From: a bacterium
GTDB lineage: Bacteria > Patescibacteriota > Saccharimonadia > Saccharimonadales > SZUA-47
Assembly (NCBI GenBank): GCA_043753565.1
Contig: JAYUWM010000074.1
Location: 25,273-89,272 of the forward strand
DNA: 64,000 nt
Direction: 5' to 3'
Below the pieces are notes generated by a model. That model was not told the origin of the DNA. It saw only the letters and a list, made by a program, of their open reading frames with translations, and did not search any database. The position numbers were made by a program, and so were the translations under genes. The stretch's first letter is position 1; each line of letters opens with the position of its first letter. This document shows, one piece after another, positions 37,242 through 60,264 of the stretch.

Positions 37242-37460
37242 TCAGAGAGGTTCGTACAGTTTACCTTTAATTCCACAAGCTACTCCGAACCAACTATAGT
37301 TGGTTCGTTCGTTTAAGCACTCACGACCAATAATCTCAGGTCTAGATAGCTCATAAGAGTCTTTTATGTTTACACCAGGGTGCGTACATCTTAGTGTATT
37401 GAAGTAAGTACTTTTGTGGTCTATGCTATACTTACAGTTTGTACAATATTTTGGAGTCAT
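37242..37460 (-). CDS. small Cys-rich protein
   Basis: 72 aa; contains C.NC...C...C...C. Confidence 0.45.
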   Translation of the reverse strand: MTPKYCTNCKYSIDHKSTYFNTLRCTHPGVNIKDSYELSRPEIIGRECLNERTNYSWFGVACGIKGKLYEPL

Positions 37461-37636
37461 TTTTCTTTAACGATCAAATACTGCTCTTTAAAAACCCAAA
37501 AGGTACCCAAGGCTGTTGGGTAGTCAAGTAGTTTAGAGGAAACTAAAACGTCTCCATCTTCTCGCTTACTCCACGTTTCTACAATTACCTGGTGATTTGA
37601 GGTATCTGCGTTTTCAATTCTTACTGATTTTGTCAT
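37457..37636 (-). CDS. small hypothetical protein (59 aa)
   Basis: ATGA overlaps at both ends. Below the ORF-track cutoff. Confidence 0.45.
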   Translation of the reverse strand: MTKSVRIENADTSNHQVIVETWSKREDGDVLVSSKLLDYPTALGTFWVFKEQYLIVKEK

Positions 37637-38580
37637 AGTCCTGTTACTTCCCAGCCTTTACGCATGTAAAAGCCTTGTCTATTTCTATTTTGTACCCTAT
37701 CACTAGGCCCGCTAAAGTTAATATCTATAGCTACCGGTGCTAACTTGTTTTTGTGCTCACGTTGAATACGCCCTATTAGCTGCTCTAGTAATGCATCATT
37801 GGCAATAGGCTCTGCTAATATTATGCAGCTAAGGATATTGATGGAGATACCCTCTGAGAAGATTTGGCGCGAACCAGCAATGCAGCTCTTTTCACCGTCT
37901 TCAACTTGTCGTTTGAGCTCTTTACGTTCTTCGAAGGTTGTCCCCCCAGTAATACACACACATTCATCACCAATAAGCTCCTTTACTTGTTCTAAGAATT
38001 CAACTCTACTAGCTACTACTAATACTTTGTACCCTTTAGCAATCTGTACTTTAGCTAATCCTGCTATAAACTGCTGATAGTTGGGGTCGTATAAGAGGTT
38101 ATTAATTTTAATTACCCAAGGGTCTCCTTGGGACAATGAAATGCCAGGTTTCATAACTATAACGCTAGGCGTCATAGTATGAGATTGTGCAGGCTGCAAC
38201 AGCTTAGGGCCGAAGAAATCTTTGAATAAGATATGCCTACCGTCTACGCGTACCATAGTACCTGATAAGCCTATACGGTACTTAGCGTACATACCATCAA
38301 TAAAGTCTGTAAAGGTTGTAGCAGGGCAGTGATGTGCTTCGTCTACAATAACAGTACCAAACTCTTTAGATATTTTAGGAAGTAGTTTAGTTAGTGTTTG
38401 AATATTACCAACTACAATAGTATGGTCAATATCAAACTCCCCGCTACCTATAATACCAACAGGCATACCGTACAGGGCCTGCACTTCTTCAATCCACTGA
38501 TCTCTAAGCATTGTATTGTGACATACGATCAAAGTCTTCTGCCCGAGCTTTCTAGCAATGTGAAGGGCTGTGAATGTTTT
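37633..38580 (-). CDS. SF2 (DEAH) helicase, exon 2
   Basis: Starts KTFTALHIA (second half of Walker A); contains DEAH, SGT and QLIGRIQR motifs. The track ATG 38583-38581 is proposed to be the intron end. Confidence 0.75.
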   Translation of the reverse strand, partial: KTFTALHIARKLGQKTLIVCHNTMLRDQWIEEVQALYGMPVGIIGSGEFDIDHTIVVGNIQTLTKLLPKISKEFGTVIVDEAHHCPATTFTDFIDGMYAKYRIGLSGTMVRVDGRHILFKDFFGPKLLQPAQSHTMTPSVIVMKPGISLSQGDPWVIKINNLLYDPNYQQFIAGLAKVQIAKGYKVLVVASRVEFLEQVKELIGDECVCITGGTTFEERKELKRQVEDGEKSCIAGSRQIFSEGISINILSCIILAEPIANDALLEQLIGRIQREHKNKLAPVAIDINFSGPSDRVQNRNRQGFYMRKGWEVTGL

Positions 38581-39581
38581 CATTTATGGACTATACCATT
38601 ATCTTATAACTAACGACGCTATTTTGAATTTTCTATCAAGTCTGGTAGCTGTAGTAGAGTTTTTATATAGCATATTTATTAAGACGGCACTATCATCAAG
38701 TGTAAATCTAATATTATAAACTTGACCCTTAGGGTTTATATTTAATACTATTTTTTGTTCGATAGACTTATTAAGTAATATTTCACAAATACTTTTAAAC
38801 TCTTCTAAGAAACTTTTATTAGCGGAGCACAAACTTAAAGCTACTCTACCTGAAGCAGTTAAATTTAAGTTACCGTCCCCTTCTATATACCCACGCATAA
38901 ACTCTAAGAACAAGTAATCCTCAGTAAAATAGGGTAGCATATAGGTGTGTGTCTTAGCAGGGGTTATATTAAATATACTATTTAAATCCTGTACCATCTT
39001 TTCACTATTAAATCTAATTCTAAACGCAGACTCCTGCATAAAGGGACAAATATCGTGCGAAGAAGAAACGGCTAATTTGAATTTCTCTAAGTGACCTATA
39101 TCCTGCTTTTGTAAAGCTAATCCTACTCTATTACGTTCACCCTCTATCCAACCATCTGCCGCCAAAAAGCCTGCCCAGTAATTAGAAGATTTCGTATTAT
39201 TAGAGAAAAAATGCTCGTTTAATAGTTTCTTTTTTGAGAAATCTAAACCCCATCCTTTAGTTCTATAATTTACTTGTCGTTCTGTTAAATTAAAGTGCCT
39301 ACCAATTTGACTAAAAGTTAGTCCAGTTGCGCGTAGTTCTAAAAATTCTTCTAATGTCATTGTGTATCCCATATGTGGATTTGATACGTTAAATAAGATA
39401 TTCGCCGTGTTATACCTATATAGGTATCCCAGTCAACTTCTGTTCTAGAAGTTCTGTGAGTCTCTGAACCATTTGAAGGTATCCCTACCAACTCTGGCTG
39501 CTGATTATCCTTATTAAGGGCCTTCCAGCAATTGAGCGAATTTATTACCCTTTAATTACTTAAAGGGAGGGCAAAACGTCT
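38581..39581 (-). mobile_element. group I intron carrying a LAGLIDADG homing endonuclease ORF
   Basis: Exon 1 ends ..GGUUGGGGU and the intron ends ..AAAUG. Guide sequence GUUUU-GCCCU (39577-39568) pairs with exon 2 AAAAC (P10) and exon 1 GGGGU (P1, with U.G at the splice site). Splicing restores GWG|KT. Confidence 0.7.
38599..39372 (-). CDS. LAGLIDADG homing endonuclease (intron-encoded)
   Basis: Two motifs, WAGFLAADGWI and FMRGYIEGDGNL, plus an N-terminal HTH-like segment. Confidence 0.8.
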   Translation of the reverse strand: MGYTMTLEEFLELRATGLTFSQIGRHFNLTERQVNYRTKGWGLDFSKKKLLNEHFFSNNTKSSNYWAGFLAADGWIEGERNRVGLALQKQDIGHLEKFKLAVSSSHDICPFMQESAFRIRFNSEKMVQDLNSIFNITPAKTHTYMLPYFTEDYLFLEFMRGYIEGDGNLNLTASGRVALSLCSANKSFLEEFKSICEILLNKSIEQKIVLNINPKGQVYNIRFTLDDSAVLINMLYKNSTTATRLDRKFKIASLVIR

Positions 39582-39803
39582 ACCCCAACCAACTAGCGCA
39601 TTGATAAAGCAAGAGCCATCTACAGTATCGTATACTTCTTGCTGTCCGTCTCTAAGAGGGAATCTAGCATTTGGAAAAGGTAACTCATGCAGGCTACGTT
39701 TATCAATAATTTCATGACCTGCGGGTATTAAGTCTTCTCGGCCTACCGGAATAGACATAATACCACGTGGTAGCATTTTATAGTTTTTTACAATATCAAA
39801 CAT
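39582..39803 (-). CDS. SF2 helicase, exon 1
   Basis: Ends ...FPLRDGQQEVYDTVDGSCFINALVGWG (first half of Walker A). The frame stays open upstream to 39923 (possible ATT start after AAGGGAG). Confidence 0.65.
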
Positions 39804-39924
39804 ACCAAAAGAAATACCTGGTCTAGGTTTTTTCTTTATCTTGTATGTTAAAGCCTTGACAAGATTATTAGATATCTCAGGCGTAGTGTCTAGATATATT
39901 CTATTAGAAATAATTGCTTTAATA

Positions 39925-40290
39925 CTATACTCCCTTTGTTACTAGGTGCACGTAAACTAAAAGTTTACGTGCTTTAGCGACTGTAATCATATTAGCAGTC
40001 CCTCTGCTTTCTCCATCCCATAAGGCTACTAAGCAGTCTGCATTTTCTGCCATTTGAGCGTTACGTATGAATCCGGCTTTACGCCCATATACGTCCCAGG
40101 AAGCTAAAAACTCTTCTACAGGTACATTATTTAACTTACCCCATTGCCTACCTAGCTCGTCAGCACCCTTAGCGCCTCCGCATATAACTGTAGTAGGGGT
40201 CCAGGCAATATTGGCTAGGGCTGCTTCTAACAGTTTAGGGTCGGTAACGCCTCTACCGCCTGCTATAATAGTTCTCATACTAATCTCCAT
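39925..40290 (-). CDS. SLOG/DUF2493-like nucleotide-binding protein
   Basis: IIAGGRG...VICGGAKGADELG...ALWDGESRGT pattern. Confidence 0.6.
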   Translation of the reverse strand: MEISMRTIIAGGRGVTDPKLLEAALANIAWTPTTVICGGAKGADELGRQWGKLNNVPVEEFLASWDVYGRKAGFIRNAQMAENADCLVALWDGESRGTANMITVAKARKLLVYVHLVTKGV

Positions 40291-52312: not shown

Positions 52313-52387
52313 TGGTACTACATAGCAGAGTTGAACTGCTCTTAATGGCTTGAAAAGCCACTGTCCTAACCGATAGACGAATGTAGT
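52313..52387 (-). tRNA. tRNA-Glu(UUC)
   Basis: Acceptor ACTACAT/ATGTAGT, anticodon loop UUUUCAA, T-loop UUCAACU, CCA encoded. Confidence 0.85.
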
Positions 52388-52631
52388 ATAATAAAAGATA
52401 AGATAGTGTGCTATTACGCTAAAAGGGACTTCAGCCTTACCGTTTCCGGGGTGCCTATGTACTTTACCAAGTGGCTCACGCGAGATTCGTATACTAAGCT
52501 AGAAGTTGCGCTGCGTTATTATATACTTTTCTACTTTCAGAAACCTAGATGCCCTTCAGTTTCTTACAGACCCAACGTGCCTTTGCCCTACTCTTTAAAT
52601 GATGGCTGCTTCTAAGCCCACATTCTAACTT

Positions 52632-52726
52632 ACCATATTTAAGTACCCTAGCAGCCCTGAAGCCCTGAAGCCCTGAAGCCCTGAAGCCCTTGCTGTGGTT
52701 TTAACACAAAGGTACTTAAATATGGT
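52632..52726 (-). ncRNA. CCAUAU-type long hairpin H1
   Basis: 16-bp arms accatatttaagtacc/ggtacttaaatatggt. The interior carries (GCCCTGAA)x4. The arm overlaps the CCA of tRNA-Thr. Confidence 0.6.
52654..52690. repeat. octamer tandem repeat (GCCCTGAA)x4 + partial
   Basis: Exact 8-bp repeats inside hairpin H1. Confidence 0.9.
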
Positions 52727-52797
52727 GCCCAGTGTCCGGATTGAACAGACGACCTATCCCTTACAAGGGGATTGCACTACCGCTGTGCTAACTGGGC
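52723..52797 (-). tRNA. tRNA-Thr(UGU)
   Basis: Acceptor GCCCAGT/ACTGGGC, anticodon loop CUUGUAA, T-loop UUCAAUC, CCA encoded. Confidence 0.9.
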
Positions 52798-52808
52798 ACG
52801 TAACTTGT

Positions 52809-53081
52809 TTATACAGATTCTTTAGTTACATCTGTCATTTTTAGCGGGTCAAAACGACGATACATAGTCTTTACATCAAACTTATCACGAATACGTGCAG
52901 CTTCTGCAAGGAAGTCGCTTTTTGCTGCTTCGTTTTCTGCAATGAATAGTCCCTGGTCTTCTACGCTAAGCTCAGAAATATCGACGCCTTCATACATATT
53001 ATTAGGACTAACAGTAACATAAAGAGCACGCTGGCTGGCTTTGTGGTCGGCTTTAGTGTAAGTAAATTGCATGAAGTTCAT
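52809..53081 (-). CDS. hypothetical protein
   Basis: 90-aa ORF downstream of a promoter. Confidence 0.5.
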   Translation of the reverse strand: MNFMQFTYTKADHKASQRALYVTVSPNNMYEGVDISELSVEDQGLFIAENEAAKSDFLAEAARIRDKFDVKTMYRRFDPLKMTDVTKESV

Positions 53082-53109
53082 TGTATTTTGCTTTCTGTGT
53101 TTAAGTATT

Positions 53110-53138
53110 AATTATACAGCGATTTATGTACTAAATCA
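53110..53138 (-). promoter_or_regulatory. early-type promoter TTGATT-17-TATAATTAAT
   Basis: -35 at 53138-53133, -10 at 53115-53110. Confidence 0.6.
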
Positions 53139-53232
53139 AGTCAATATTTAGTGACTAATAGGTGGGTACTTATACCGTCTGTGTAAGTATATATTATACA
53201 GCTTTAAGCAAAACTAATCAACTCTAAAATTT

Positions 53233-53484
53233 TTAATCTTCTTTGAATAGCCCATCATAAACGTGCTTTTGAAAGATTAAACTAAGATAAGGGTGAGTAA
53301 AACTAAAAAACACTAGGGGGGCTGCTATTAAAGCTACTACAAAAAAGGCGAAATATACGGTGCCTTTGTTAAACACTGCAAAGCCTTCTGCCTCTCGCCT
53401 TAAGATAGCAGGTCTTAAGCTAACGATGATTGCGGTAAGTGCTGTTGTTATTGCAAACAGGATATAGAGTAAAACTAACTCCAT
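53233..53484 (-). CDS. membrane protein (hypothetical)
   Basis: 83 aa with two to three hydrophobic helices. Confidence 0.5.
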   Translation of the reverse strand: MELVLLYILFAITTALTAIIVSLRPAILRREAEGFAVFNKGTVYFAFFVVALIAAPLVFFSFTHPYLSLIFQKHVYDGLFKED

Positions 53485-53485
53485 C

Positions 53486-53884
53486 TTAAGCCGGTACTCT
53501 TAGATTAGCCCGCGCTGCAATAGAGAAATAAGACTCTCGCATAGCTTTAGTTTCCGGCTTAAGAGTAGTTCTAGCAGCAACGGGGCTTTGAGCTTGAAGT
53601 GCTGCACGAGAAATCTCAACATTAGCACTCATAATAGCGCGATTAAACTTACCACCAAACAGTTTAAATAGTTTAGCGGCTGCAATCCAGCTTGCTGACC
53701 ACTCTTGATTCACGGGAGTTTTACGACGGTAAACCATGCCCTTTAAGGCAAGCTTTGCCTGCTCGTTATTAGGCTGATTACGGATAGTTCGTTCCAACCT
53801 GGCTTTACGGTTAGTTTCCCAGCGGCGGCTGGTTTTGTAAACTGAAGAGGCTGCGACTGCTGTTTTACTTTTTGCTTTTGACAT
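53486..53884 (-). CDS. basic hypothetical protein
   Basis: 132 aa, Lys/Arg-rich. Confidence 0.5.
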   Translation of the reverse strand: MSKAKSKTAVAASSVYKTSRRWETNRKARLERTIRNQPNNEQAKLALKGMVYRRKTPVNQEWSASWIAAAKLFKLFGGKFNRAIMSANVEISRAALQAQSPVAARTTLKPETKAMRESYFSIAARANLRVPA

Positions 53885-53907
53885 AGGTTTTATTAGAAGT
53901 TAAGTTT

Positions 53908-54315
53908 TTAAGATTCTGCGCCTTGAACCAAGATGTTGTATAAATAGGCTTCTACAACTTCAGGGTCTTGGAATTGTTTGATAACCATACGATGTTTAAT
54001 GTACTTGGCTACGCGTTTTAGGATAAACAAAAGCGAAGAAATTTCCGAACTATCAAAAGGTACTTCATCGCCACCAGATACAACTGTAATCGTCGGAATT
54101 TTCAAGGTTTTAGCTTGCTTAATTTGACTAATAAGTTCGTCTAAAGAATCTACGTGAAATTCTACATACCTATAAGCCGTATCAGATATACTAATTTTAG
54201 TGTCTGTAAAACTTACTGCATAATAAAAGGGTACTCCTGCAGGGCTACGAAACAAGCAGCCGGGGTCTAGTTTAGAAATAGAGTTATCAGGGACAGGACA
54301 GATGAGAAATTCCAT
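53908..54315 (-). CDS. hypothetical protein
   Basis: 135-aa ORF. Confidence 0.5.
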   Translation of the reverse strand: MEFLICPVPDNSISKLDPGCLFRSPAGVPFYYAVSFTDTKISISDTAYRYVEFHVDSLDELISQIKQAKTLKIPTITVVSGGDEVPFDSSEISSLLFILKRVAKYIKHRMVIKQFQDPEVVEAYLYNILVQGAES

Positions 54316-54345
54316 TGTATATTCTTAGTTGGTTATTTAGTTAAT

Positions 54346-54422
54346 TGGTAGATCGACTGGGATTCTAACCCAGGATCAACGGCTTATGAGGCCGCTGCTT
54401 TAGGACTCTAAGCTATCGACCT
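54346..54422 (-). tRNA. tRNA-Met or Ile2 (CAU)
   Basis: Acceptor AGGTCGA/TCGATCT, anticodon loop CUCAUAA, T-loop UUAGAAU, CCA encoded. Confidence 0.8.
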
Positions 54423-54428
54423 TTATTT

Positions 54429-54511
54429 TGGTATCCCTGGCCAGATTCGAACTGGCACGCCAAAGGCGGGAGATTTTAAGTCTCCTGTGTCTACCGTTCC
54501 ACCACAGGGAC
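54429..54511 (-). tRNA. tRNA-Leu(UAA)
   Basis: Anticodon loop CUUAAAA, long variable arm CGCCUUUGGCG, T-loop UUCGAAU, CCA encoded. Confidence 0.85.
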
Positions 54512-54517
54512 AAAAGG

Positions 54518-54982
54518 TTACATAGACCAGTAAAATGCTGTAAATGCGTGCTTTACAGCATATGCAATATCTTCTTTTTTATAGTTTTTCAATAGCGGCA
54601 ACTGGATAGTCTCACCGTTTAAGAATTTTTGTGTAGCTCCCGCATTACCGATCTTCTTGCTAAAAGAGTCTGCTGTTGAGCACACATGCACAGCTACGTC
54701 TACCATTGCACCAGAGCTATAGGGGCTAGACTTTTGATAGGCAACGGTCATACCGCCCTTTGGGTGCTCCGGGTCGTAAATATGTACGATGCCTATAGCG
54801 TTATCAGGTTTTTGCGGCTTATTAGCTTCTACTACGTCTGTTTCAAGTACGGGAAAGGGCCAAACAGTATCCGAAGTGCCGGAAGCAAACTCCATACCTG
54901 AAGTGTTTTTTGATGTGCGACTAGGAAAGGCGTTCTGGAATAGTTTAATAAGTTCAGGAGGCAGATTAAGGGGGTTAGTCAT
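54518..54982 (-). CDS. hypothetical protein
   Basis: 154-aa ORF downstream of a promoter. Confidence 0.5.
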   Translation of the reverse strand: MTNPLNLPPELIKLFQNAFPSRTSKNTSGMEFASGTSDTVWPFPVLETDVVEANKPQKPDNAIGIVHIYDPEHPKGGMTVAYQKSSPYSSGAMVDVAVHVCSTADSFSKKIGNAGATQKFLNGETIQLPLLKNYKKEDIAYAVKHAFTAFYWSM

Positions 54983-55007
54983 ATTGTTTTCTGTTTAATA
55001 AGTAATA

Positions 55008-55036
55008 ATTATATCAAAGTTAAGCACACTAATCAA
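55008..55036 (-). promoter_or_regulatory. early-type promoter TTGATT-17-TATAAT
   Basis: -35 at 55036-55031, -10 at 55013-55008. Confidence 0.6.
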
Positions 55037-55566
55037 GTAGATTTTTTAATACCTAGTTTAAGCTCTTCTAGGGAAATAGGTGTATAGTCTTCTAGTTGTT
55101 CCATACATACACATACGTATCTAGGGTCAGGAAGTTTAGTACTTTCAAAGGTTACTACGTTAGAGTGTAAGTGTCCGTGTACATTTACAGGCCAACGACC
55201 TAGGCTATTAACATGCACAGGAATGTGTGTAAGCAGCATACCGTCAAATTGGTGGCTGCCTCTAACGTCTTTAAAGTATTTTACGTACTCTGTTAGTTTT
55301 TCTTTATCGTGATTACCTTTGATAAGCACTTTTTCACCGTTTAGTCTTGCTACGTTAGCTAGTGCTTTCTTGTTAAAAGCTACATCACCTAAAAAGTACA
55401 CTTTATCCGAAGGCTTTACCGTTTTATTATGTTGAGCAATCATATGCTCATCCATTTCATCTATGTTTTTGAAATCACGAAGAACTGTTACACCATCTGC
55501 ACGAGTAAAGGTAATCATTCCTAAGTGTGAAAAATGGTGATCTGAACAGAGAAAAATGTTACTCAT
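55033..55566 (-). CDS. calcineurin-like metallophosphoesterase (Ser/Thr phosphatase-like)
   Basis: Motifs DHHFSH, GDVAF, GNHD, HGHLH. Confidence 0.8.
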   Translation of the reverse strand: MSNIFLCSDHHFSHLGMITFTRADGVTVLRDFKNIDEMDEHMIAQHNKTVKPSDKVYFLGDVAFNKKALANVARLNGEKVLIKGNHDKEKLTEYVKYFKDVRGSHQFDGMLLTHIPVHVNSLGRWPVNVHGHLHSNVVTFESTKLPDPRYVCVCMEQLEDYTPISLEELKLGIKKST

Positions 55567-55579
55567 ATACTACAATAAA

Positions 55580-55601
55580 GAAAAGCCGCGTATAGGCGGC
55601 T
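55580..55601 (-). terminator. hairpin terminator after tRNA sub-cluster
   Basis: Minus-strand stem AGCCGC/GCGGCU followed by a U-run. Confidence 0.55.
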
Positions 55602-55611
55602 TAGGGTATGG

Positions 55612-55685
55612 TGGCGGGGCATGGGAGAATCAAACCCCATCAGCGGATAGACAATCCGCGATAACGGCCGTTATATGAATGCCCG
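55612..55685 (-). tRNA. tRNA-Asp(GUC), atypical
   Basis: Anticodon stem GCGGA/UCCGC with loop UUGUCUA. Has a C1.C72 mismatch, a weak T-stem, and ends GCCACCA (double CCA). Confidence 0.6.
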
Positions 55686-55790
55686 TGGTATAGCGTGTAG
55701 GATTCTAACCTACGAAAAGATACTTTAACTAGCGACGCCTTGTCTAGTTATATAAGTTTACCGTGTCTTACGGCTCTCACTTAACGCTAT
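55686..55790 (-). ncRNA. 105-nt tRNA-like RNA without recognisable anticodon arm
   Basis: Perfect acceptor ATAGCGT/ACGCTAT with A-CCA, T-arm GUAGG-UUAGAAU-CCUAC. The core is replaced by two hairpins (CCGU-AAGAC-ACGG; ACUU..UAACUAG-11nt-CUAGUUA..AAGU). Confidence 0.55.
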
Positions 55791-55795
55791 AATAT

Positions 55796-55870
55796 TGGTA
55801 CTCTTTCGTGGTTTTGAACCACGCCGCACGGATTTTCAGTCCGCCGCTCTACCAAATGAGCTAAAAGAGT
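55796..55870 (-). tRNA. tRNA-Phe(GAA)
   Basis: Acceptor ACTCTTT/AAAGAGT, anticodon loop CUGAAAA, T-loop UUCAAAA, CCA encoded. Confidence 0.9.
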
Positions 55871-55877
55871 AAGTTGT

Positions 55878-56165
55878 TTATCCTTCTATCCAGACTGGTG
55901 TGCCAGTCATAGTATATCCGTCGTGCTTTTTAGAATCATAAAGCTCCCAAGTACCTTCTATGTTTTCGTCTGCTGAATCGTTGTCACATTCTTCATCTTC
56001 ATCTTCAGAAGGCGGATAAAAGCCGTACATTTCAGCGTTAGCTATTGCACACTCATTGGCTAAGCTATAAAGCGAGTCATCAGTTGTATCATCCGGGACT
56101 TCAAAAAATTCCCAAGAATCAGTTCCAATAGTATTGGTTGTGCAGTGAATTACAATCTTTTTCAT
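55878..56165 (-). CDS. acidic hypothetical protein
   Basis: Start trimmed to MKKIVIHC (ATG 56165, after AGGAAC). The longer track ORF would run over the promoter. Confidence 0.5.
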   Translation of the reverse strand: MKKIVIHCTTNTIGTDSWEFFEVPDDTTDDSLYSLANECAIANAEMYGFYPPSEDEDEECDNDSADENIEGTWELYDSKKHDGYTMTGTPVWIEG

Positions 56166-56187
56166 TTTAGTTCCTGTTAATGTATTA

Positions 56188-56216
56188 ATTATACAGAAAA
56201 GTAACACAGACTTCAA
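56188..56216 (-). promoter_or_regulatory. early-type promoter TTGAAG-17-TATAATTAAT
   Basis: -35 at 56216-56211, -10 at 56193-56188. Confidence 0.6.
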
Positions 56217-56227
56217 ATAAGAAATTA

Positions 56228-56302
56228 TGGTAGTTCCTCACAGTTTCGAACTGTGGACCTTCTCCGTGTAAAGGAGTTGCTCTACCCCTGAGCTAAGGAA
56301 CT
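56228..56302 (-). tRNA. tRNA-Val(UAC)
   Basis: Acceptor AGTTCCT/AGGAACT, anticodon loop UUUACAC, T-loop UUCGAAA, CCA encoded. Confidence 0.9.
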
Positions 56303-56307
56303 ATAGC

Positions 56308-56616
56308 TTAGTAACTATTGGTGGCTACTGTAACGGGGGTTATTTCTGCGCCTGATAGCTCAAGAAATATATATAGCTTTCCAGGCACCATTTTAGATAA
56401 ACGATTACACTCCAAACGAGCTGCTGCTCTGGATGTGTGTAGCGTAGGGTCTTTGGCGATAGAAAACCCGGAAGAGTTAGAGTAGCTACCTACAATAAAT
56501 CTTTTGTTAAGTACTCCTTCAATGGCTGCGTCGATAGAGTATAATATTGTGTTGTTATTCATACGTTTGCAGTAGCTTGCTAGGTACTCTAGTTCGTTAA
56601 TTGATTCTGGATTCAT
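56308..56616 (-). CDS. hypothetical protein
   Basis: 102-aa ORF. Confidence 0.5.
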   Translation of the reverse strand: MNPESINELEYLASYCKRMNNNTILYSIDAAIEGVLNKRFIVGSYSNSSGFSIAKDPTLHTSRAAARLECNRLSKMVPGKLYIFLELSGAEITPVTVATNSY

Positions 56617-56641
56617 AGTAATTTTTATTTTATTTTATTTT

Positions 56642-56718
56642 TGGTGTGAGATAAGAGATTCGAACTCTTTCTTGCTGGGTGGAAGCCAGCCGTGCTAGCC
56701 GTTAAACACTAACCCCAC
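56642..56718 (-). tRNA. tRNA-Gly(UCC)
   Basis: Acceptor GTGGGGT/ATCTCAC (two G.U pairs), anticodon loop CUUCCAC, T-loop UUCGAAU, CCA encoded. The 5' 24 nt overlap the end of CDS 56695..57060. Confidence 0.85.
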
Positions 56719-57060
56719 TATTAATATATAGGTAACCTGATGCAAATACTGGTCAAAGCCAGTCAGCCACCAAAACTCTGGGTGAGTGGTGGGACCCCAT
56801 TTTGTAATTCTAGTAACATTCATCTTAGCCCAGTCAATATGGTAATGTAAAATGAAATCTATAAAAAACACTAAGATGTACTGGTTTGTTACTAGAGAGA
56901 AACAGAGTACAGTAAATACTGCATTAAAAGCAGCATGAAGTATACCTCCATAATGTCCGTAGGTACCTTTGTTCTTCCACATCCAAGAAGGTTGTAAAAT
57001 CCAATCCACTATCAGGTGTTTTGTTTGTAACAGCAGTAATAGTATAATTAGTGTTTTCAT
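56695..57060 (-). CDS. His-rich multi-pass membrane protein (DUF3307-like)
   Basis: 121 aa with TM helices and HYHIDW/H..F motifs. Confidence 0.45.
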   Translation of the reverse strand: MKTLIILLLLLQTKHLIVDWILQPSWMWKNKGTYGHYGGILHAAFNAVFTVLCFSLVTNQYILVFFIDFILHYHIDWAKMNVTRITKWGPTTHPEFWWLTGFDQYLHQVTYILIVGLVFNG

Positions 57061-57105
57061 ACAACAGTTCTAACAAGTTTTAGTATATGTTTCAAGCTAA
57101 TATCT

Positions 57106-57179
57106 TGGTGCGGGCGGAGAGAATTGAACTCTCGTCTAGACGTTGGCAACGTCCTATTCTACCATTGAACTACGCACGC
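57106..57179 (-). tRNA. tRNA-Gly(GCC)
   Basis: Acceptor GCGTGCG/CGCCCGC (one mismatch), anticodon loop UUGCCAA, T-loop UUCAAUU, CCA encoded. Confidence 0.85.
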
Positions 57180-57185
57180 TTACTA

Positions 57186-57410
57186 CTAACGCCGCATAGA
57201 GGCAGCGTCTACAGCAGCTTGTTTGCTAAAAATAGGTTGCAAGCAGCTTTTGTGGATAATGGAAATACCAATCATTTTATCTCCAGTATAGACAGGAACT
57301 TCTTTAAGAGAAGTAGTGCCTCCATGGGTTGCAAAACTAGGGATATAAGGAGTTTCACGGTCACCAACGCGGGCTGGTGAAACTGAGGATAGTTTAAATT
57401 GCTTTTTCAT
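57186..57410 (-). CDS. hypothetical protein
   Basis: 74-aa ORF. No SD; the -10 box ends 6 nt before the ATG. Confidence 0.4.
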   Translation of the reverse strand: MKKQFKLSSVSPARVGDRETPYIPSFATHGGTTSLKEVPVYTGDKMIGISIIHKSCLQPIFSKQAAVDAASMRR

Positions 57411-57416
57411 ATAATT

Positions 57417-57445
57417 ATTATAACAATATTAAGCAAGTATTTCAA
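57417..57445 (-). promoter_or_regulatory. promoter TTGAAA-17-TATAAT abutting the ATG
   Basis: -35 at 57445-57440, -10 at 57422-57417. Confidence 0.55.
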
Positions 57446-57454
57446 GTAAGAATT

Positions 57455-57528
57455 TGGGGTAATAACGGGTTTCAATCCCTATCTTATAGTTTCACAGACG
57501 ATGGTGCTATCATTACACTATTATTACC
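57455..57528 (-). tRNA. tRNA-His(GUG)
   Basis: Encoded G-1 pairs with C73 (G-GTAATAA...TTATTAC-C-CCA). Anticodon loop CUGUGAA. Weak T-arm (GGG-AUUGAAA-CCC). Confidence 0.7.
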
Positions 57529-57529
57529 A

Positions 57530-57823
57530 TTAAAAAGGAATGTCAGTATCCCAAGCACCGTCGTCATACCGAGTAAACTCAGTATACCTGCCATCTTTTT
57601 CAGGTTCTTTAGGGGCTCCCCACTTTTCAAAGTTAGCCATATCTTGAATGGTTTCTATAACAATGTGCTGAAATTTACAGTAGCCTTGCTTTTCTGCCCA
57701 TATTAAGTACTCGTAGTGGTCTTCAATAACGTCACAAACTCTGCAACCTTTTAGTTTACCAAATGTAATTTGATCAAGTAAGCCCAGCTTAGGGTCTTTT
57801 AAGTTTCTAAAGTTTAGGGCCAT
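57530..57823 (-). CDS. hypothetical protein
   Basis: 97-aa ORF; its ATG lies inside the 3' arm of hairpin H2. Confidence 0.5.
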   Translation of the reverse strand: MALNFRNLKDPKLGLLDQITFGKLKGCRVCDVIEDHYEYLIWAEKQGYCKFQHIVIETIQDMANFEKWGAPKEPEKDGRYTEFTRYDDGAWDTDIPF

Positions 57824-57946
57824 ATGTTAGTAGATACGTAAAGTTAACTAAGAAACCCCCAGGCAGGTAGCCCTGTTTCCACTTATGATATGATGCTTCC
57901 AACCACTCTCATATACCCCTTGGGTAGGGTATCTACTAACATATGG
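57820..57946 (-). ncRNA. CCAUAU-type long hairpin H2
   Basis: 18-bp arms ccatatgttagtagatac/gtatctactaacatatgg. It bridges the tRNA-Arg CCA and ATG 57823. Confidence 0.6.
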
Positions 57947-58020
57947 CCTCTCCTGACAGACTCGAACTGCCACCGTACGGTTTCGTAAACCGACGCATTA
58001 TCCATTTGTGCTAAGGAGAG
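57944..58020 (-). tRNA. tRNA-Arg(ACG)
   Basis: Acceptor CTCTCCT/AGGAGAG, anticodon loop UUACGAA, T-loop UUCGAGU, CCA encoded. Confidence 0.85.
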
Positions 58021-58121
58021 ATTAGTGCAGCGTCTAGTCTGATGACCATGCGAGGATTTGCGGTATTCCGGTGTACCTTTAGTAGAAATCCATCTACTAG
58101 GCCCTTCACGTTGGCCTTTAT

Positions 58122-58196
58122 TGGTAGTAAAGATAGGATTTGAACCTATGATCTTCTCCGTATGAAGGAGCTGCTTTACCGCTAAGCTACTTTACC
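58122..58196 (-). tRNA. tRNA-Met or Ile2 (CAU)
   Basis: Acceptor GGTAAAG/CTTTACT, anticodon loop UUCAUAC, T-loop UUCAAAU, CCA encoded. Confidence 0.8.
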
Positions 58197-58202
58197 TCAA
58201 TT

Positions 58203-58412
58203 TTAATCGTTTGTTATGGTAAACACTTTTCTATTAGAGCAGGTAGTAGTTTCATTTCCTATAAAACTAGCTCGGATGCTTACTACTGTACTACTATTCT
58301 TAGCACACAATAGTACGGCTGTGTCTATGTCATTAGAGCTAACGGATTGGTAAAAGCAGCCGCTAAGCATAATGCTAGTCAGTATTGTTATCAGTATTTT
58401 GTTCATCAGCAC
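58203..58412 (-). CDS. small lipoprotein, putative
   Basis: Signal peptide with lipobox MLSGC; overlaps the protease gene end. Confidence 0.5.
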   Translation of the reverse strand: MLMNKILITILTSIMLSGCFYQSVSSNDIDTAVLLCAKNSSTVVSIRASFIGNETTTCSNRKVFTITND

Positions 58413-58992
58413 GCTCTTGTAAAAGTTTAGTACGTTGTTCCATGCGCAAGACTACTTCGTCTACGTCCATCCACAAATCTTTATTATCTAGTAAGGACTG
58501 GATTTCTGCTGGAGATAAGAACTCTTCGTAGATTTCTTTTAAAAGCTGTTCTGACCACTTACGCTCATGCTGAATCTGGCCGTACATCTCGCCACCTTTG
58601 CCCATTGTTCCACCAGAATAATTGTGGAACATAAACATAGAGTGCGGAGTTACCTCAAACTGGTCTGCACATAAAAAGATCATAGTAGCGGCACTCATAC
58701 AAGCACCTTCAACACTACAAATAACCAACGCTTCTGTTTCTGCTAAAACACGCATGAACTGAATACCTGTAAACATATCACCACCGTAGCTGTTAATATA
58801 AATTTTAACAGTATCGTCAGGCTTGCAGTGTCGAATGGTATCAAACCAATCAATGTAATTTTCAGGGCTATCAATAGTACCTGAAATATAAAACTCGTAC
58901 ACGTGAGAGGATGCTTTAGGCTCAATCATTCCAGGGATGCCGTCCCCAAAGATAGGTACTAGTTTACTTGCTTTGGTCATTGTCGCTTTCAT
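58375..58992 (-). CDS. ClpP-like serine protease (S14 family)
   Basis: INSYGGD, G.CMSAA (Ser), and MFHNYSGG (His) resemble the ClpP catalytic motifs. Confidence 0.6.
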   Translation of the reverse strand: MKATMTKASKLVPIFGDGIPGMIEPKASSHVYEFYISGTIDSPENYIDWFDTIRHCKPDDTVKIYINSYGGDMFTGIQFMRVLAETEALVICSVEGACMSAATMIFLCADQFEVTPHSMFMFHNYSGGTMGKGGEMYGQIQHERKWSEQLLKEIYEEFLSPAEIQSLLDNKDLWMDVDEVVLRMEQRTKLLQERADEQNTDNNTD

Positions 58993-58996
58993 AAAG

Positions 58997-59071
58997 TGGA
59001 GTCGGGTACTGGAGTTGCACCAGTCTGGTACGGATTTGCAATCCGCTGCCTAACTACTCGGCCAACCCGAC
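58997..59071 (-). tRNA. tRNA-Cys(GCA)
   Basis: Acceptor GTCGGGT/ACCCGAC, anticodon loop UUGCAAA, non-canonical T-loop UGCAACU, CCA encoded. Confidence 0.8.
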
Positions 59072-59191
59072 ATAAATAAGTACTACTCAGCGCTTGAATC
59101 TGTGAAAACCCTGCTCTTCATGGCCTACCTTCACGTTCTGCAGAATAGTGTCGGTTATCGGTGTTCCATTGTAGTTTTTGTAGTAATATGG
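59071..59191 (-). ncRNA. CCAUAU-type long hairpin H3 (imperfect)
   Basis: CCAUA-U-UACUAC ... GUAGUA-CUUAUU-UAUG. It bridges the tRNA-Ser(UGA) CCA and tRNA-Cys G1. Confidence 0.45.
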
Positions 59192-59278
59192 CGGAAAAGG
59201 AGAGGGTCGAACTCTCAAGGCTATTTCTAACTCGACGGTTTTCAAGACCGGTCCCATCGCCAATTGGGTTGCTTTTCC
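59189..59278 (-). tRNA. tRNA-Ser(UGA)
   Basis: Acceptor GGAAAAG/CTTTTCC, anticodon loop CUUGAAA, long variable arm, T-loop UUCGACC, CCA encoded. Confidence 0.85.
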
Positions 59279-59427
59279 TTCTAATTAGAACACTTAGTAA
59301 GTATGCTAATTAGAAGAGTCTCATATAGTGTTAACTGATGAAACTCTGTACTGTTTATCAAATAGGAGTGGACGTGTGACCTCATACCCTATTAGTTCTA
59401 GTACTTTTAAGCACTGCTGCTTAAATC

Positions 59428-59503
59428 TGGTTGCGGGTGTTGGAGTCGAACCAACGGCCTCTAGGTTATGAGCCTAGCTATCTACCACCTGATATAACCC
59501 GCG
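59428..59503 (-). tRNA. initiator-type tRNA-fMet(CAU)
   Basis: CGCGGG...CCCGCAACCA ends with a C1.A72 mismatch; anticodon loop CUCAUAA on a stem with two G-C pairs. Confidence 0.75.
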
Positions 59504-59520
59504 TTATTTTTTTAATTGTA

Positions 59521-59597
59521 TGGCAACCCAGGTAGGATTTGAACCTACAACACATGCGTTTGGAGCGCACCGCTCTGCCAATTGGAGCTACTGAGTT
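59521..59597 (-). tRNA. tRNA-Trp(CCA)
   Basis: Acceptor AACTCAG/CTGGGTT, anticodon loop CUCCAAA, T-loop UUCAAAU, CCA encoded. Confidence 0.85.
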
Positions 59598-59602
59598 ATA
59601 TT

Positions 59603-59676
59603 TGGTACCTGCTGATGGTTACGCTCCACCGTCTAACGATTATCAGTCATTGGCTCTACTATTGAGCTAAGCAGGT
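59603..59676 (-). tRNA. tRNA-Ile(GAU)
   Basis: Acceptor ACCTGCT/AGCAGGT, anticodon loop CUGAUAA, non-canonical T-loop AGCGUAA, CCA encoded. Confidence 0.8.
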
Positions 59677-59770
59677 TTATTATATTTAGTAGTTAGCCAG
59701 TAGTACCAAGTATTTAATTTCCACCCTAAGGCAATAAATGCAAATACTACTAACGCTAAAATTAGGTTAA

Positions 59771-60196
59771 TCACTTAAACTTTTCCAGGTTTTCAAGATT
59801 TTGGCAAGAACCTTCTTCTGCTTTATATGTTTTAGTCTCAAACTCAGCCTTGGTCATGCAGCCATTAATGCCTTTGCCAGTACCGTTTGTTTGGCACTTA
59901 ACAGGCAAGACTTTACCCGTTTCAAACTGAATTTCTCCACTAGCCCAGCCGTCACCGTTACGGCAATTTTTAGCGACTGTGCTGTCTGACTGCATAAGAA
60001 TACGTGTAGGCTTTCCCAGTTTAGCGTCTACAGCGCCTTCAGGATACGCAATAGGGAAATAACTAGCAGCGTTTTTCTGGGCATTAAAACGGGTTACAGC
60101 CATGTTATTATCTACTACATCCTGAGGTGCCTCTGAAGTACAAGCTACCAAAGACGCAGCAATAATCATAGAAGCCAGTAGTTTAGTGAATTTCAT
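59771..60196 (-). CDS. lipoprotein, putative (possible superinfection-exclusion type)
   Basis: Signal peptide with lipobox SLVAC; the mature part is Cys-containing. The function is inference only. Confidence 0.5.
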   Translation of the reverse strand: MKFTKLLASMIIAASLVACTSEAPQDVVDNNMAVTRFNAQKNAASYFPIAYPEGAVDAKLGKPTRILMQSDSTVAKNCRNGDGWASGEIQFETGKVLPVKCQTNGTGKGINGCMTKAEFETKTYKAEEGSCQNLENLEKFK

Positions 60197-60222
60197 TTTA
60201 GAGATTTGTTGTTTAAAGAATA

Positions 60223-60251: not shown

Positions 60252-60264
60252 GTCTATTTTTATC

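What the first reader, a model, noticed from the sequence alone, without database searches (positions are those of the whole stretch)
38581..39581. Group I intron with LAGLIDADG endonuclease splitting the Walker A codons of the SF2 helicase
ORF 39552..39803 ends ...INALVGWG and then runs into a stop. ORF 37633..38583 starts M-KTFTALHIA... and carries DEAH. Joining 39582 to 38580 recreates A-L-V-G-W-G-K-T, a Walker A motif, in frame. The 1001-nt insert begins after a U (..GGGGU|A) and ends in G (..AAAUG|AAAACA). Its 5' end contains GUUUU-GCCCU. GCCCU can pair with exon 1 GGGGU (P1, with the canonical U.G at the splice site) and GUUUU with exon 2 AAAAC (P10). A double-motif LAGLIDADG ORF (38599..39372) sits inside. 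I am not aware of introns in this helicase in T5-type phages, but I cannot search.
Basis: partly seen in the sequence, partly recalled or inferred. Interest (0 to 1): 0.65.

Follow-up and report, generated by a model that had tools for sequence, protein, structure and literature searches.

The report
Group I intron in phage helicase
A 1001-base self-splicing-type (group I) intron carrying its own homing-endonuclease gene interrupts the ATP-binding loop codons of a replication helicase in an uncultured T5-like phage. This is a real but ordinary kind of mobile element, at an insertion site that has not been described.

Summary
The observation and the interpretation both hold. On the minus strand, joining 39582 to 38580 restores ..CFINALVGWG|KTFTALH.., which 25 intron-less homologous contigs encode without interruption. 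The 1001-nt insert (38581..39581) is the only RF00028 match in the window. It scores 38.8 bits (E 2e-6 for the whole window), below the gathering score of 50. The likely reasons are an ~800-nt ORF in the P8 loop that splits the core, and the absence of P9. P1-P8 with P7.1/P7.2 can be drawn, an unconstrained fold reproduces them, and seven homologous introns at the same site support them: 95% of cells paired, 25 of 74 pairs with compensatory changes, 0 of 500 shuffles as good. ORF-less members of the same sequence family reach 65-79 bits. The ORF is an intact two-motif LAGLIDADG endonuclease.

New context:
- The intron belongs to a family with a nearly identical core at two sites in T5-like phages: this helicase site and motif B of the neighbouring DNA polymerase.
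- The guide sequence fits the exons at each site, and the two sites carry paralogous endonucleases.
- The helicase-site lineage has no P9.
- The helicase really starts at an ATT codon (39923), not at ATG 39803.

Splicing itself is untested. Verdict: new member of a known kind, moderate interest.

The parts
39582..39923 (-). Helicase exon 1 (114 codons). The likely start is ATT 39923, preceded by AGGGAG and a 6-nt spacer. The exon ends ..ALVGWG with GGU; U39582 is the 5' splice-site U.
   Evidence: The frame is open from 39938. The N-terminus 'KAIISNRIYLD..LTYKI' is conserved in homologs that start M(A/P)KAIISNRIYLD. The closest relative, L041, has ATC at the same codon. ATG 39803, which the ORF finder used, is internal.
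38581..39581 (-). Group I intron, 1001 nt, IA-like, with its ORF in the P8 loop and no P9.
   Evidence: RF00028 matches at 38.8 bits for 39339..39591 and 17.2 bits for 38568..38728. Covariation on alignment A2. Unconstrained fold. Junction of intron-less alleles.
39568..39586 (-). P1: exon GGGGU (39586..39582) plus intron AGA (39581..39579) pairs with UUUGCCCU (39575..39568). U39582.G39572 is the wobble pair at the splice site. The guide GUUUU (39577..39573) can form P10 with exon 2.
   Evidence: Rfam alignment and unconstrained fold. 96% of cells are paired across 7 introns. GUUUUGCC is invariant.
39548..39567 (-). P2: CCCUUUAA / UUAAAGGG with a GUAA tetraloop. The exon-1 reading frame ends at UAA 39554..39552, inside the 3' strand.
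   Evidence: 6 of 8 pairs show compensatory changes. The stop is seen.
39535..39541 (-). P3 5' strand AUUCGCU (pairs with 39400..39406).
   Evidence: Family-wide covariation: AUUCGCU/GGCGAAU, ACUCGCU/GGCGAGU, ACUUGCU/GGCAAGU, AGUCGCU/GGCGACU, ACCCGCU/GGCGGGU, ACCUGCU/GGCAGGU.
39468..39530 (-). P4-P6 domain: P4 39530..39525 / 39504..39499; P5 39519..39516 / 39512..39509; P6 39498..39495 / 39471..39468; P6a 39491..39486 / 39481..39476 with a GGGA tetraloop.
   Evidence: P4 and P6 are invariant; P5 and P6a covary.
39459..39464 (-). P7 5' strand G[A]GACU with bulged A39463. It pairs with AGUCC 38592..38588. G39462-C38589 lies at the position of the guanosine-binding pair.
   Evidence: Matches the Rfam consensus GUUCAaAGACUA ... 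UAUAGUC. It is invariant in all family members, so it offers no covariation test.
39412..39456 (-). P7.1 (39456..39447 / 39441..39430, loop AGAAC) and P7.2 (39427..39422 / 39417..39412), the extra hairpins of subgroup IA.
   Evidence: Unconstrained fold. P7.1 has 5 pairs with compensatory changes, for example AACUUCU/AGAAGUU versus CAAAACC/GGUUUUG.
39400..39406 (-). P3 3' strand GGCGAAU.
39388..39399 (-). P8 5' strand AUCUUAU-UU-AAC.
   Evidence: It pairs with 38601..38610. 5 of 10 pairs show compensatory changes.
38599..39372 (-). LAGLIDADG homing-endonuclease ORF (257 aa from ATG 39372). The conserved start MT.E.F corresponds to ATG 39360, giving 253 aa. It has an N-terminal helix-turn-helix-like region and two LAGLIDADG motifs. 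Its last codons and stop overlap the P8 3' strand and J8/7.
   Evidence: Pfam LAGLIDADG_3, 32.4 bits against a cut-off of 22.5. phrog_4645 'endonuclease', E 3e-36. The profile matches PDB 2dch at E 1.7e-9. The ORF is intact in all 7 helicase-site introns, with YWAGFxAADG and RGYxxGDG invariant.
38581..38610 (-). 3' core: P8 3' strand (38610..38601), J8/7 AAUGGUAU (38600..38593), P7 3' strand AGUCC (38592..38588), a 6-nt tail AUAAAU, and the terminal G38581. There is no P9 hairpin.
   Evidence: Second Rfam piece. GGUAUAGUCC followed by 4-8 nt and then G|AAAAC in all 8 helicase-site introns. No conserved hairpin across the 3' splice site.
37633..38580 (-). Helicase exon 2 (315 codons plus stop). 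It starts AAA ACA (K-T of Walker A) and contains DEAH and the Helicase_C domain.
   Evidence: The spliced protein aligns in one piece with uninterrupted T5-like helicases.

Best explanation
The insert 38581..39581 (minus strand) is a mobile group I intron of the IA type in the D10-position SF2 helicase gene of an uncultured T5-like phage.

Splicing (inferred from the canonical group I pathway, not tested here). The pre-mRNA folds into P1-P8 with a P3/P7 pseudoknot. An external guanosine bound in P7 attacks after U39582, which P1 presents as a U.G wobble. The guide then holds exon 2 through P10 (GUUUU with AAAAC). The terminal G38581 enters the guanosine site, and the exons are ligated to GGU|AAA. 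This recreates the GWGKT P-loop and a 429-aa helicase.

Translation (partly shown, partly inferred). Ribosomes that run from exon 1 into unspliced RNA stop after nine codons, at a UAA in P2; that stop is seen in the sequence.

Mobility (inferred). The P8 loop carries a single-chain LAGLIDADG endonuclease. It presumably cuts intron-less helicase alleles at the Walker A codons during mixed infection, and repair then copies the intron into the cut allele (homing).

Family context (shown). The intron belongs to a family with an almost identical catalytic core that occupies two sites in T5-like phages, this one and motif B of the DNA polymerase. The guide sequences fit each site's exons, and the two sites carry paralogous endonucleases.
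For: 1. Junction.
- The ligated sequence encodes CFINALVGWGKTFTALH, exactly what 25 intron-less contigs (18 distinct sequences) encode without interruption.
- The spliced protein aligns in one piece with Vibrio T5-like helicases at 43-44% identity and with the PM135 helicase at 37%.

2. RNA.
- This is the only RF00028 match in the window: 38.8 bits, E 2.3e-6.
- A second piece of the model covers the P8 3' strand, J8/7 and the P7 3' strand.
- An unconstrained minimum-energy fold reproduces P1, P2, P3, P4, P5, P6, P6a, P7.1 and P7.2 (z = -2.86).

3. Covariation in 7 introns at the same site.
- 95.2% of cells are paired, 25 of 74 pairs carry compensatory changes, and 0 of 500 shuffles do as well.
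- Slid controls give 32-46% paired and 4-9 compensated pairs.
- P3 covaries across the wider family.

4. Short or ORF-less members of the same sequence family pass the Rfam gathering score at 64.6-78.9 bits.

5. Splice-site rules.
- The terminal G is conserved in 8 of 8 introns even though the tail before it varies from 4 to 8 nt.
- All 7 intron-bearing alleles use GGU for the Gly codon, against 6 of 18 distinct intron-less alleles (one-sided p about 0.004, not corrected for phylogeny).

6. Mobility.
- The closest helicase, L041 (82% aa identity), is intron-less.
- Intron-bearing helicases are only 44-71% identical to the window's, yet their intron cores are about 85% identical in nucleotides.

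7. Endonuclease. The ORF is intact in all copies and both catalytic Asp residues are invariant.
Against: - No splicing data of any kind; the source is a metagenome assembly.
- The window's intron does not reach the Rfam gathering score (38.8 versus 50 bits).
- P9, present in the polymerase-site relatives and in the Rfam consensus, is missing. Only 6 nt separate P7 from the terminal G, so autonomous and efficient 3' splice-site use is not guaranteed.
- P4, P6 and P7 never vary among the sequences found, so they have no covariation support. The family was also collected through an exact 21-mer that spans J6/7 and P7.
- The covariation alignment used hand-built constructs with the ORF removed, and the structure was drawn from the window sequence.
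- The window copy lacks the promoter-like insert in P7.2 that most relatives carry, so how its endonuclease is expressed is unclear.
Confidence: 0.88

Rival explanations
1. The intron is real, but it does not splice autonomously. Having lost P9, the ribozyme needs a protein helper to fold or to select the 3' splice site. The helper could be its own LAGLIDADG protein acting as a maturase, or a host factor.
For: All 8 helicase-site introns have only 4-8 nt between P7 and the terminal G and no substitute hairpin. The polymerase-site relatives keep a covarying P9 with a GNRA loop. Every helicase-site copy keeps an intact LAGLIDADG ORF, and no ORF-less copy was found at this site, unlike the polymerase site. 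LAGLIDADG maturases are known from fungal mitochondrial group I introns (from my own knowledge).
Against: The catalytic core P3-P8, P1 and P10 are complete and conserved. Truncated phage group I ribozymes that lack their 3'-terminal domains are active in vitro (from my own knowledge of work on the T4 sunY intron). Both catalytic aspartates are invariant, which fits a nuclease rather than a dedicated maturase. The absence of ORF-less copies rests on only 7-8 sequences.
Confidence: 0.1
2. The helicase is a split gene. A homing-endonuclease insertion divided it, and the two halves are translated separately and assemble, as in some HEG-split phage genes. There is no RNA splicing.
For: ORF finders and gene callers do call two separate ORFs (83 aa and 316 aa). 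The second begins with an ATG formed by the last three insert bases.
Against: The break falls between G and K of the GxGKT P-loop, which must be contiguous to bind phosphate. The ATG before exon 2 is absent from the other seven copies (..GTAAG|..CACAG|..AAACG|). The flanks of the endonuclease ORF fold into a covarying group I core, which a free-standing endonuclease insertion would not need.
Confidence: 0.03
3. The intron is a decayed relic that no longer splices, which leaves the helicase a pseudogene in this phage.
For: Its Rfam score is below the gathering score. It has no P9. It lacks the promoter-like element in P7.2 that most relatives carry.
Against: No core helix is disrupted in the window copy. 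Both exons are open and conserved, at 82% aa identity to an intron-less relative. The endonuclease ORF is intact. The U at the 5' splice site, the terminal G and the guide sequence are all preserved. The same P9-less design is shared by 8 diverged copies, which means it is maintained.
Confidence: 0.04
4. The insert is an intein, that is, the element is removed by protein splicing.
For: LAGLIDADG endonucleases are common in inteins, and helicase P-loops are classic intein sites.
Against: The exon-1 frame stops 9 codons into the insert. The endonuclease ORF has its own start and stop and is flanked by about 210 nt and 18 nt of non-coding RNA-core sequence. Pfam finds only LAGLIDADG_3 (plus a sub-threshold DUF2481 match) in the ORF, with no intein-splicing family among the hits.
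Confidence: 0

Closest known systems
Polymerase-site group I introns of T5-like phages: Proteus phage PM135, Providencia phage PR1, GenBank OR848168, and many IMG/VR contigs
   Same: - The catalytic core is almost identical. An exact 21-mer across J6/7-P7 and the GGUAUAGUCC of J8/7-P7 are shared.
- P7.1 and P7.2 are present in both.
- The ORF sits in the P8 loop in both.
- The LAGLIDADG endonuclease is homologous, with the same N-terminal helix-turn-helix-like region (26-31% identity).
- The phage group is the same and the replication genes are neighbours.
   Different: - The insertion site differs: family-A polymerase motif B (..AKAISFGI|LYG) rather than helicase Walker A.
- The guide sequence differs (GUCCC / AUAAA rather than GCCCU / GUUUU).
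- They have a covarying P9 hairpin that the helicase-site introns lack.
- Some copies have no ORF (L010, L017).
- The window's own polymerase is uninterrupted.
- In the GenBank records the polymerase is annotated as two CDSs plus an endonuclease, with no intron feature.
Phage T4 td / nrdB / sunY introns and Bacillus SPO1-group DNA polymerase introns (classical phage group I introns)
   Same: - Group I introns of the IA type that sit in conserved motifs of DNA-metabolism genes.
- They carry a homing-endonuclease ORF looped out of a peripheral helix.
- An in-frame stop lies soon after the 5' splice site.
- Their distribution among related phages is sporadic.
(From my own knowledge and from PMC8541194 and PMC12350094.)
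   Different: - No detectable sequence similarity at blastn level.
- The endonucleases of those introns are GIY-YIG or HNH types rather than LAGLIDADG (from my own knowledge).
- The host gene and phage family differ.
- Those introns have P9 and extended 3' domains.
I-Tsp061I (PDB 2dch), I-DmoI-type single-chain LAGLIDADG endonucleases
   Same: Two LAGLIDADG motifs in one chain. The profile match of E 1.7e-9 spans both motifs.
   Different: Those enzymes come from archaeal rRNA introns. The phage protein has an extra N-terminal helix-turn-helix-like region of about 55 aa. Its cleavage activity and target are untested.
Bacteriophage T5 D10 helicase (branch-migration SF2 helicase, PMC5180179)
   Same: The host gene occupies the same position (polymerase, then a small ORF, then the helicase). 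It has the SF2 motifs I, II and VI, and is 37% identical to the helicase at that position in PM135.
   Different: I did not align it directly with T5 D10. No intron at this site was found in any cultured T5-like phage genome searched.

Membership tests
Group I intron (Rfam RF00028) | P1 helix formed by the end of the 5' exon and an internal guide sequence, with a U.G wobble at the 5' splice site | tested here: met
   GGGGU|AGA pairs with UUUGCCCU; the wobble is U39582.G39572. 96% of cells are paired in 7 introns. All 7 intron-bearing alleles have U at this position, against 6 of 18 intron-less alleles.
Group I intron (Rfam RF00028) | Conserved core helices P3-P8 with the P3/P7 pseudoknot, including a P7 with a bulged nucleotide and a G-C pair at the guanosine-binding position | tested here: met
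   All helices can be drawn, and an unconstrained fold reproduces P3-P6, P7.1 and P7.2. P3, P5, P6a, P7.1, P7.2 and P8 covary. P4, P6 and P7 are invariant, so they are consistent with the structure but untested by covariation. The J6/7-P7 and J8/7 sequences match the Rfam consensus.
Group I intron (Rfam RF00028) | Terminal guanosine at the 3' end of the intron | tested here: met
   G38581. G is conserved in 8 of 8 helicase-site introns, although the tail before it varies in length and sequence.
Group I intron (Rfam RF00028) | Removal joins the exons in frame and restores the host gene | tested here: met
   GGU|AAA restores GWGKT. The junction peptide is identical to that of 25 intron-less contigs, and the spliced protein aligns in a single piece.
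Group I intron (Rfam RF00028) | Score at or above the curated gathering score (50 bits). This is an operational criterion, not a structural one. | tested here: inconclusive
   The window scores 38.8 bits for P1 to the P8 5' strand, plus a separate 17.2-bit piece for the 3' core. The model cannot bridge the ~800-nt ORF in P8, and there is no P9 to score. Family members with short P8 loops score 64.6-78.9 bits. I could not scan an ORF-deleted construct with the tools available.
Group I intron (Rfam RF00028) | P9 hairpin after P7. It is usual in described introns and part of the Rfam consensus, but it is not part of the catalytic core. | tested here: not met
   Only 6 nt (AUAAAU) lie between P7 and the terminal G, and 4-8 nt in the 7 relatives. 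No conserved hairpin forms across the 3' splice site. I treat this as a lineage-specific reduction rather than grounds for exclusion, because all catalytic-core features are met.
Group I intron (Rfam RF00028) | Guanosine-dependent self-splicing | not testable with these tools
   This needs in vitro transcription with GTP, or RNA from infected cells.
Subgroup IA (classification recalled from my own knowledge) | Extra helices P7.1 and P7.2 between P7 and the P3 3' strand | tested here: met
   Two hairpins at 39456..39430 and 39427..39412. Both covary. The finer assignment to IA1, IA2 or IA3 was not tested.
LAGLIDADG homing endonuclease (single-chain) | Two LAGLIDADG motifs in one chain, each ending in a conserved acidic residue, and a match to curated family models | tested here: met
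   YWAGFLAADG and RGYIEGDG, with D73 and D166 invariant in 11 homologs. Pfam PF14528 scores 32.4 bits against a cut-off of 22.5. The profile matches PDB 2dch across both motifs at E 1.7e-9.
LAGLIDADG homing endonuclease (single-chain) | Site-specific cleavage of the intron-less allele | not testable with these tools
   The inferred target is the intron-less junction, for example L041 GCACTAGTTGGCTGGGGT|AAAACATTTACAGCA. Cleavage itself is untested.
SF2 helicase at the T5 D10 position | Walker A GxGKT, DEAH, ResIII and Helicase_C domains, and gene order polymerase, small ORF, helicase | tested here: met
   For the spliced protein, Pfam gives ResIII at E 2e-21 and Helicase_C at E 4e-10. The gene order matches that of pVp-1, PM135 and PR1. 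It is 37% identical to the PM135 helicase.
Intein | An in-frame insertion translated as one polypeptide with the host protein | tested here: not met
   The exon-1 frame stops after 9 codons inside the insert, and the endonuclease ORF is separate.

The most novel reading that the evidence does not exclude
The helicase-site introns are a naturally P9-less lineage of group I ribozyme. On this reading the lineage arose by ectopic transposition between the neighbouring polymerase and helicase genes, with both the guide sequence and the LAGLIDADG specificity retargeted. The loss of the 3' domain would then be compensated by the intron's own LAGLIDADG protein acting as a maturase. As far as I know, no maturase-dependent phage group I intron has been described.
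Probability: 0.1. Interest if true: 0.6.

Novelty: new member of a known kind. Interest (0 to 1): 0.35.

Why it matters
Annotation. Gene callers split this helicase into an 83-aa orphan ORF and a 316-aa ORF that lacks its P-loop. Default Rfam scans miss the intron. The related polymerase introns in the GenBank T5-like phages PM135 and PR1 are likewise not annotated as introns. Recognising the element restores a 429-aa replication helicase.

Biology. The finding adds a new insertion site, the P-loop codons of the D10-position SF2 helicase, and a phage family (T5-like) for which the library searched holds no paper on group I introns. It fits the known rule that homing elements settle in the most conserved motifs of DNA-metabolism genes.

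The family is also a compact natural experiment. One ribozyme core occupies two target sites. Guide sequences and paralogous endonucleases fit each site. One lineage has P9 and the other does not, and there are copies with and without an ORF or an internal promoter. That makes it useful for studying how introns change sites, and how much of the 3' domain a group I ribozyme needs.

Tried and rejected
- Rfam at the gathering threshold over the whole window found tRNAs only, no intron.
- Megablast of 37400..40000 against cultured phage genomes found no match. The phage has no close cultured relative.
- Rfam in E-value mode on the whole 5.9-kb L004 locus found nothing, although L004 carries the same intron. 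The miss is an effect of the filters and the split core, not evidence against the intron.
- A single-sequence search of the PDB with the endonuclease gave no meaningful hit. A profile of 11 homologs was needed.
- I looked for a substitute P9, meaning a hairpin spanning the 3' splice site into exon 2, as the second Rfam piece suggested. There is no stable or conserved structure in 8 sequences, so I rejected it.
- The intein reading is rejected by the reading frames.
- The split-gene reading is rejected because the ATG before exon 2 is not conserved and because the flanks form an RNA core.
- Literature searches found no description of this intron. The terms covered group I introns with T5-like, Demerecviridae, helicase gene, PM135 and PR1. 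A search for precedents of P9-less introns found nothing usable.
- I did not run the large protein-database searches, structure prediction, or the metagenome and genome scans. The question was settled without them.
Full report
**Observation.**
- ORF 39552..39803 ends ..CFINALVGWG and then reads RRFALPLSN* into the insert.
- ORF 37633..38583 begins M-KTFTALHIA and carries DEAH.
- Joining 39582 to 38580 gives GGU|AAA ACA, that is G-K-T in frame.
- The insert is 38581..39581 (1001 nt). It follows a U and ends in G.
- The boundaries could slide by one base (A39581 equals A38580) without changing the product. Only the stated pair puts U before the 5' site and G before the 3' site.

**The host gene.**
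- The spliced protein has ResIII and Helicase_C domains.
- It aligns in a single piece, straight through the junction, with uninterrupted helicases of Vibrio T5-like phages (43-44% identity over residues 4-385) and with the PM135 helicase (37%, GWGKT aligned to GFGKT).
- The gene order (polymerase, small ORF, helicase) matches pVp-1, PM135 and PR1. This is the position of T5 D10, a characterised SF2 branch-migration helicase (PMC5180179).
- The window comes from a metagenome assembly (Logan SRR23617191) and has no close cultured relative.

**The RNA.**
- Rfam at its gathering score reports no intron.
- With permissive thresholds, RF00028 is the only non-tRNA match in 64 kb. It scores 38.8 bits at 39339..39591, E 2.3e-6 for the whole window and E 5e-8 for the region.
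- A second piece of 17.2 bits covers the P8 3' strand, J8/7 (GGUAUAGUCC against the consensus GAUAUAGUC) and the P7 3' strand.
- The model is split because the P8 loop holds about 790 nt of ORF.

The helices I draw are:

| Helix | Sequence | Note |
|---|---|---|
| P1 | GGGGU\|AGA / UUUGCCCU | U39582.G39572 at the splice site |
| P10 | GUUUU / exon-2 AAAAC | |
| P2 | CCCUUUAA / UUAAAGGG | GUAA loop |
| P3 | AUUCGCU / GGCGAAU | |
| P4 | UGCUGG / UCAGCA | |
| P5 | CCUU / AAGG | |
| P6 | GCCA / UGGU | |
| P6a | UUGGUA / UACCUU | GGGA loop |
| P7 | G[A]GACU / AGUCC | bulged A39463 |
| P7.1 and P7.2 | two hairpins | IA type |
| P8 | AUCUUAU-UU-AAC / GUU-AUAAGAU | ORF in the loop |

An unconstrained minimum-energy fold of 39390..39588 returns exactly P1, P2, P3, P4, P5, P6, P6a, P7.1 and P7.2 (-57.5 kcal/mol, z = -2.86).

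**Relatives and covariation.**
- A 72%-identical endonuclease led to IMG/VR contig L004, which has the same intron at the same site.
- An exact 21-mer from J6/7-P7 then found 33 stretches in IMG/VR, and a J8/7-P7 18-mer found 8.
- Seven distinct introns, the window included, sit at ..GGxTGGGGT|..G|AAAAC.. in the helicase. An eighth (L040) is truncated.
- I built ORF-deleted constructs of the seven (alignment A2) and counted pairs for the drawn structure. 95.2% of cells are paired, 25 of 74 pairs have changes on both sides, and 0 of 500 shuffles reach any measure. Sliding the partners gives 32-46% paired and 4-9 compensated pairs.
- P2, P5, P6a, P7.1, P7.2 and P8 carry the compensation. P4, P6 and P7 are invariant.
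- P3 covaries across the wider family, with six pair combinations.
- Family members with short P8 loops pass the Rfam gathering score: L010 64.6, L017 69.9, L031 76.7 and L015 78.9 bits.

**Intron-less alleles.**
- A protein-guided scan found 29 helicase loci.
- 25 of them encode NALVGWGKTFTAL, or a near variant, without interruption (18 distinct sequences).
- The closest relative of the window helicase, L041 (82% aa), is intron-less and reads TGGGGT|AAAACATT.
- Intron-bearing helicases are only 44-71% identical to the window's, while their intron cores are about 85% identical in nucleotides. This is the sporadic pattern expected of a mobile element that transfers horizontally.
- All 7 intron-bearing alleles have GGT for the Gly codon, which supplies the U for the U.G pair. 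Among the intron-less alleles, 12 of 18 have GGC (p about 0.004, uncorrected for phylogeny).

**The endonuclease.**
- ORF 38599..39372 matches Pfam LAGLIDADG_3 and phrog_4645.
- A profile of 11 homologs matches the single-chain enzyme in PDB 2dch across both motifs (E 1.7e-9), and I-CreI weakly.
- The ORF is intact (252-257 aa) in all seven helicase-site introns. YWAGFxAADG and RGYxxGDG are invariant, including both catalytic Asp residues.
- Homologs start MT.E.F, so ATG 39360 is the more likely start.
- The last codons and the stop lie in the P8 3' strand and J8/7.

**A two-site family.**
- Most of the 33 stretches are not in the helicase. They are in the family-A DNA polymerase at ..AKAIxFGI|LYG (motif B), with the guide GUCCC/AUAAA fitted to those exons.
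- The polymerase-site introns share the core almost base for base. They carry a paralogous LAGLIDADG protein (26-31% identity, same N-terminal region).
- They have a covarying P9 hairpin with a GNRA loop.
- Contigs L016 and L023 carry both introns. Contigs behind L059 and L060 carry only the polymerase intron. The window carries only the helicase intron, and its polymerase reads SFGILYG without interruption.
- The cultured T5-like phages PM135 and PR1, and GenBank fragment OR848168, have the polymerase-site intron. There it is annotated only as two polymerase CDSs plus an endonuclease, or not annotated at all.

**What is unusual.** All eight helicase-site introns have only 4-8 nt between P7 and the terminal G (AUAAAU in the window). 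They have no P9, and no conserved hairpin crosses into exon 2. I could not find or verify a precedent. It may simply be a tolerated reduction, since P1, P10 and the terminal G remain to define the 3' site. It may instead mean dependence on a protein helper. The second possibility is the main open rival, and I give it about 0.1.

**Mechanism.**
- Shown: the anatomy, the covariation, the in-frame restoration, the sporadic distribution and the intact endonuclease.
- Inferred: guanosine-initiated two-step splicing; homing by cleavage of the intron-less Walker A site and copy repair.
- Inferred: the UAA in P2 protects the core from ribosomes. A conserved CCACAUAUGG hairpin just upstream of the endonuclease start may limit its translation, by analogy with T4 introns (from my own knowledge).

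**Novelty.**
- Group I introns with homing endonucleases in phage DNA-metabolism genes have been known for decades (PMC12350094, PMC8541194).
- I found no paper or cultured phage genome with an intron at this helicase site, and no paper on group I introns in T5-like phages.
- It is therefore a new member of a known kind. The P9-less design and the two-site family make it modestly more interesting than a routine intron.

**Limits.**
- There is no expression or splicing evidence.
- The family was gathered through exact core words, so more diverged members are missing and the core looks more invariant than it may be.
- The covariation alignment used hand-made ORF deletions, and the structure was drawn from the window sequence. 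The slid controls partly address this.

Noticed in passing
window 39923..39803 (-): The helicase appears to start at a non-canonical ATT codon (39923), preceded by AGGGAG and a 6-nt spacer. The 40 codons upstream of ATG 39803 are open and conserved (KAIISNRIYLD..LTYKI). Homologs have ATG or GTG at that codon, and the closest relative, L041, has ATC. Gene callers therefore truncate exon 1 to 83 aa.
   Followed up: partly
window 39925..40290 (-): An extra 121-aa gene lies between the small post-polymerase ORF and the helicase. It matches Pfam YAcAr (PF10686) and phrog_289 'GTP-binding domain'. L004 and pVp-1 have no gene at this position.
   Followed up: no
L004 about 2880..2950; also L006, L009, L016 and most polymerase-site introns (for example L021, L023): Most family members carry a 55-70-nt extension of P7.2 with a near-consensus sigma-70-type promoter aimed at the endonuclease ORF. 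Examples are TTGAAA-17 nt-TATAAT and TTGACA-18 nt-TATAAT. The window's intron has only a 6-bp P7.2 hairpin and no such element, as do L013, L023b, L005, L010 and L017.
   Followed up: partly
L001 (PM135), L002 (PR1), L071 (OR848168): Cultured or GenBank T5-like phages have a group I intron with a LAGLIDADG ORF in the DNA polymerase at ..AKAISFGI|LYG. The records annotate two 'DNA polymerase' CDSs and an 'endonuclease', with no intron feature. OR848168 is labelled a Listeria phage, but it encodes a T5-type polymerase.
   Followed up: partly
L010 4585..5153: Two group I introns lie about 40 nt apart in one polymerase gene (79.2 and 64.6 bits). The second belongs to this family and has no ORF.
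   Followed up: no
L005 (IMGVR_UViG_3300035701_000016), around the 21-mer at 2701..2721 (-): The same intron core sits at a third, different exon context (..GCTTTGGTCAACC..). It carries a 177-aa Cys-rich ORF with an HNH-like tail instead of a LAGLIDADG protein. I did not identify the host gene.
   Followed up: no
window 39395..39355 (-): A conserved CCACAUAUGG(G/A)G element lies just upstream of the endonuclease start in all helicase-site introns. It can form a small hairpin (CCA/UGG) that overlaps the likely ribosome-binding purines, so it may control translation.
   Followed up: no
window 52316..63766 (-), especially 59193..59278: A block of 19 tRNA genes lies on the minus strand. One further element matches tRNA-Sec weakly (39.9 bits against a gathering score of 47) and is probably a tRNA with a long variable arm.
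   Followed up: no
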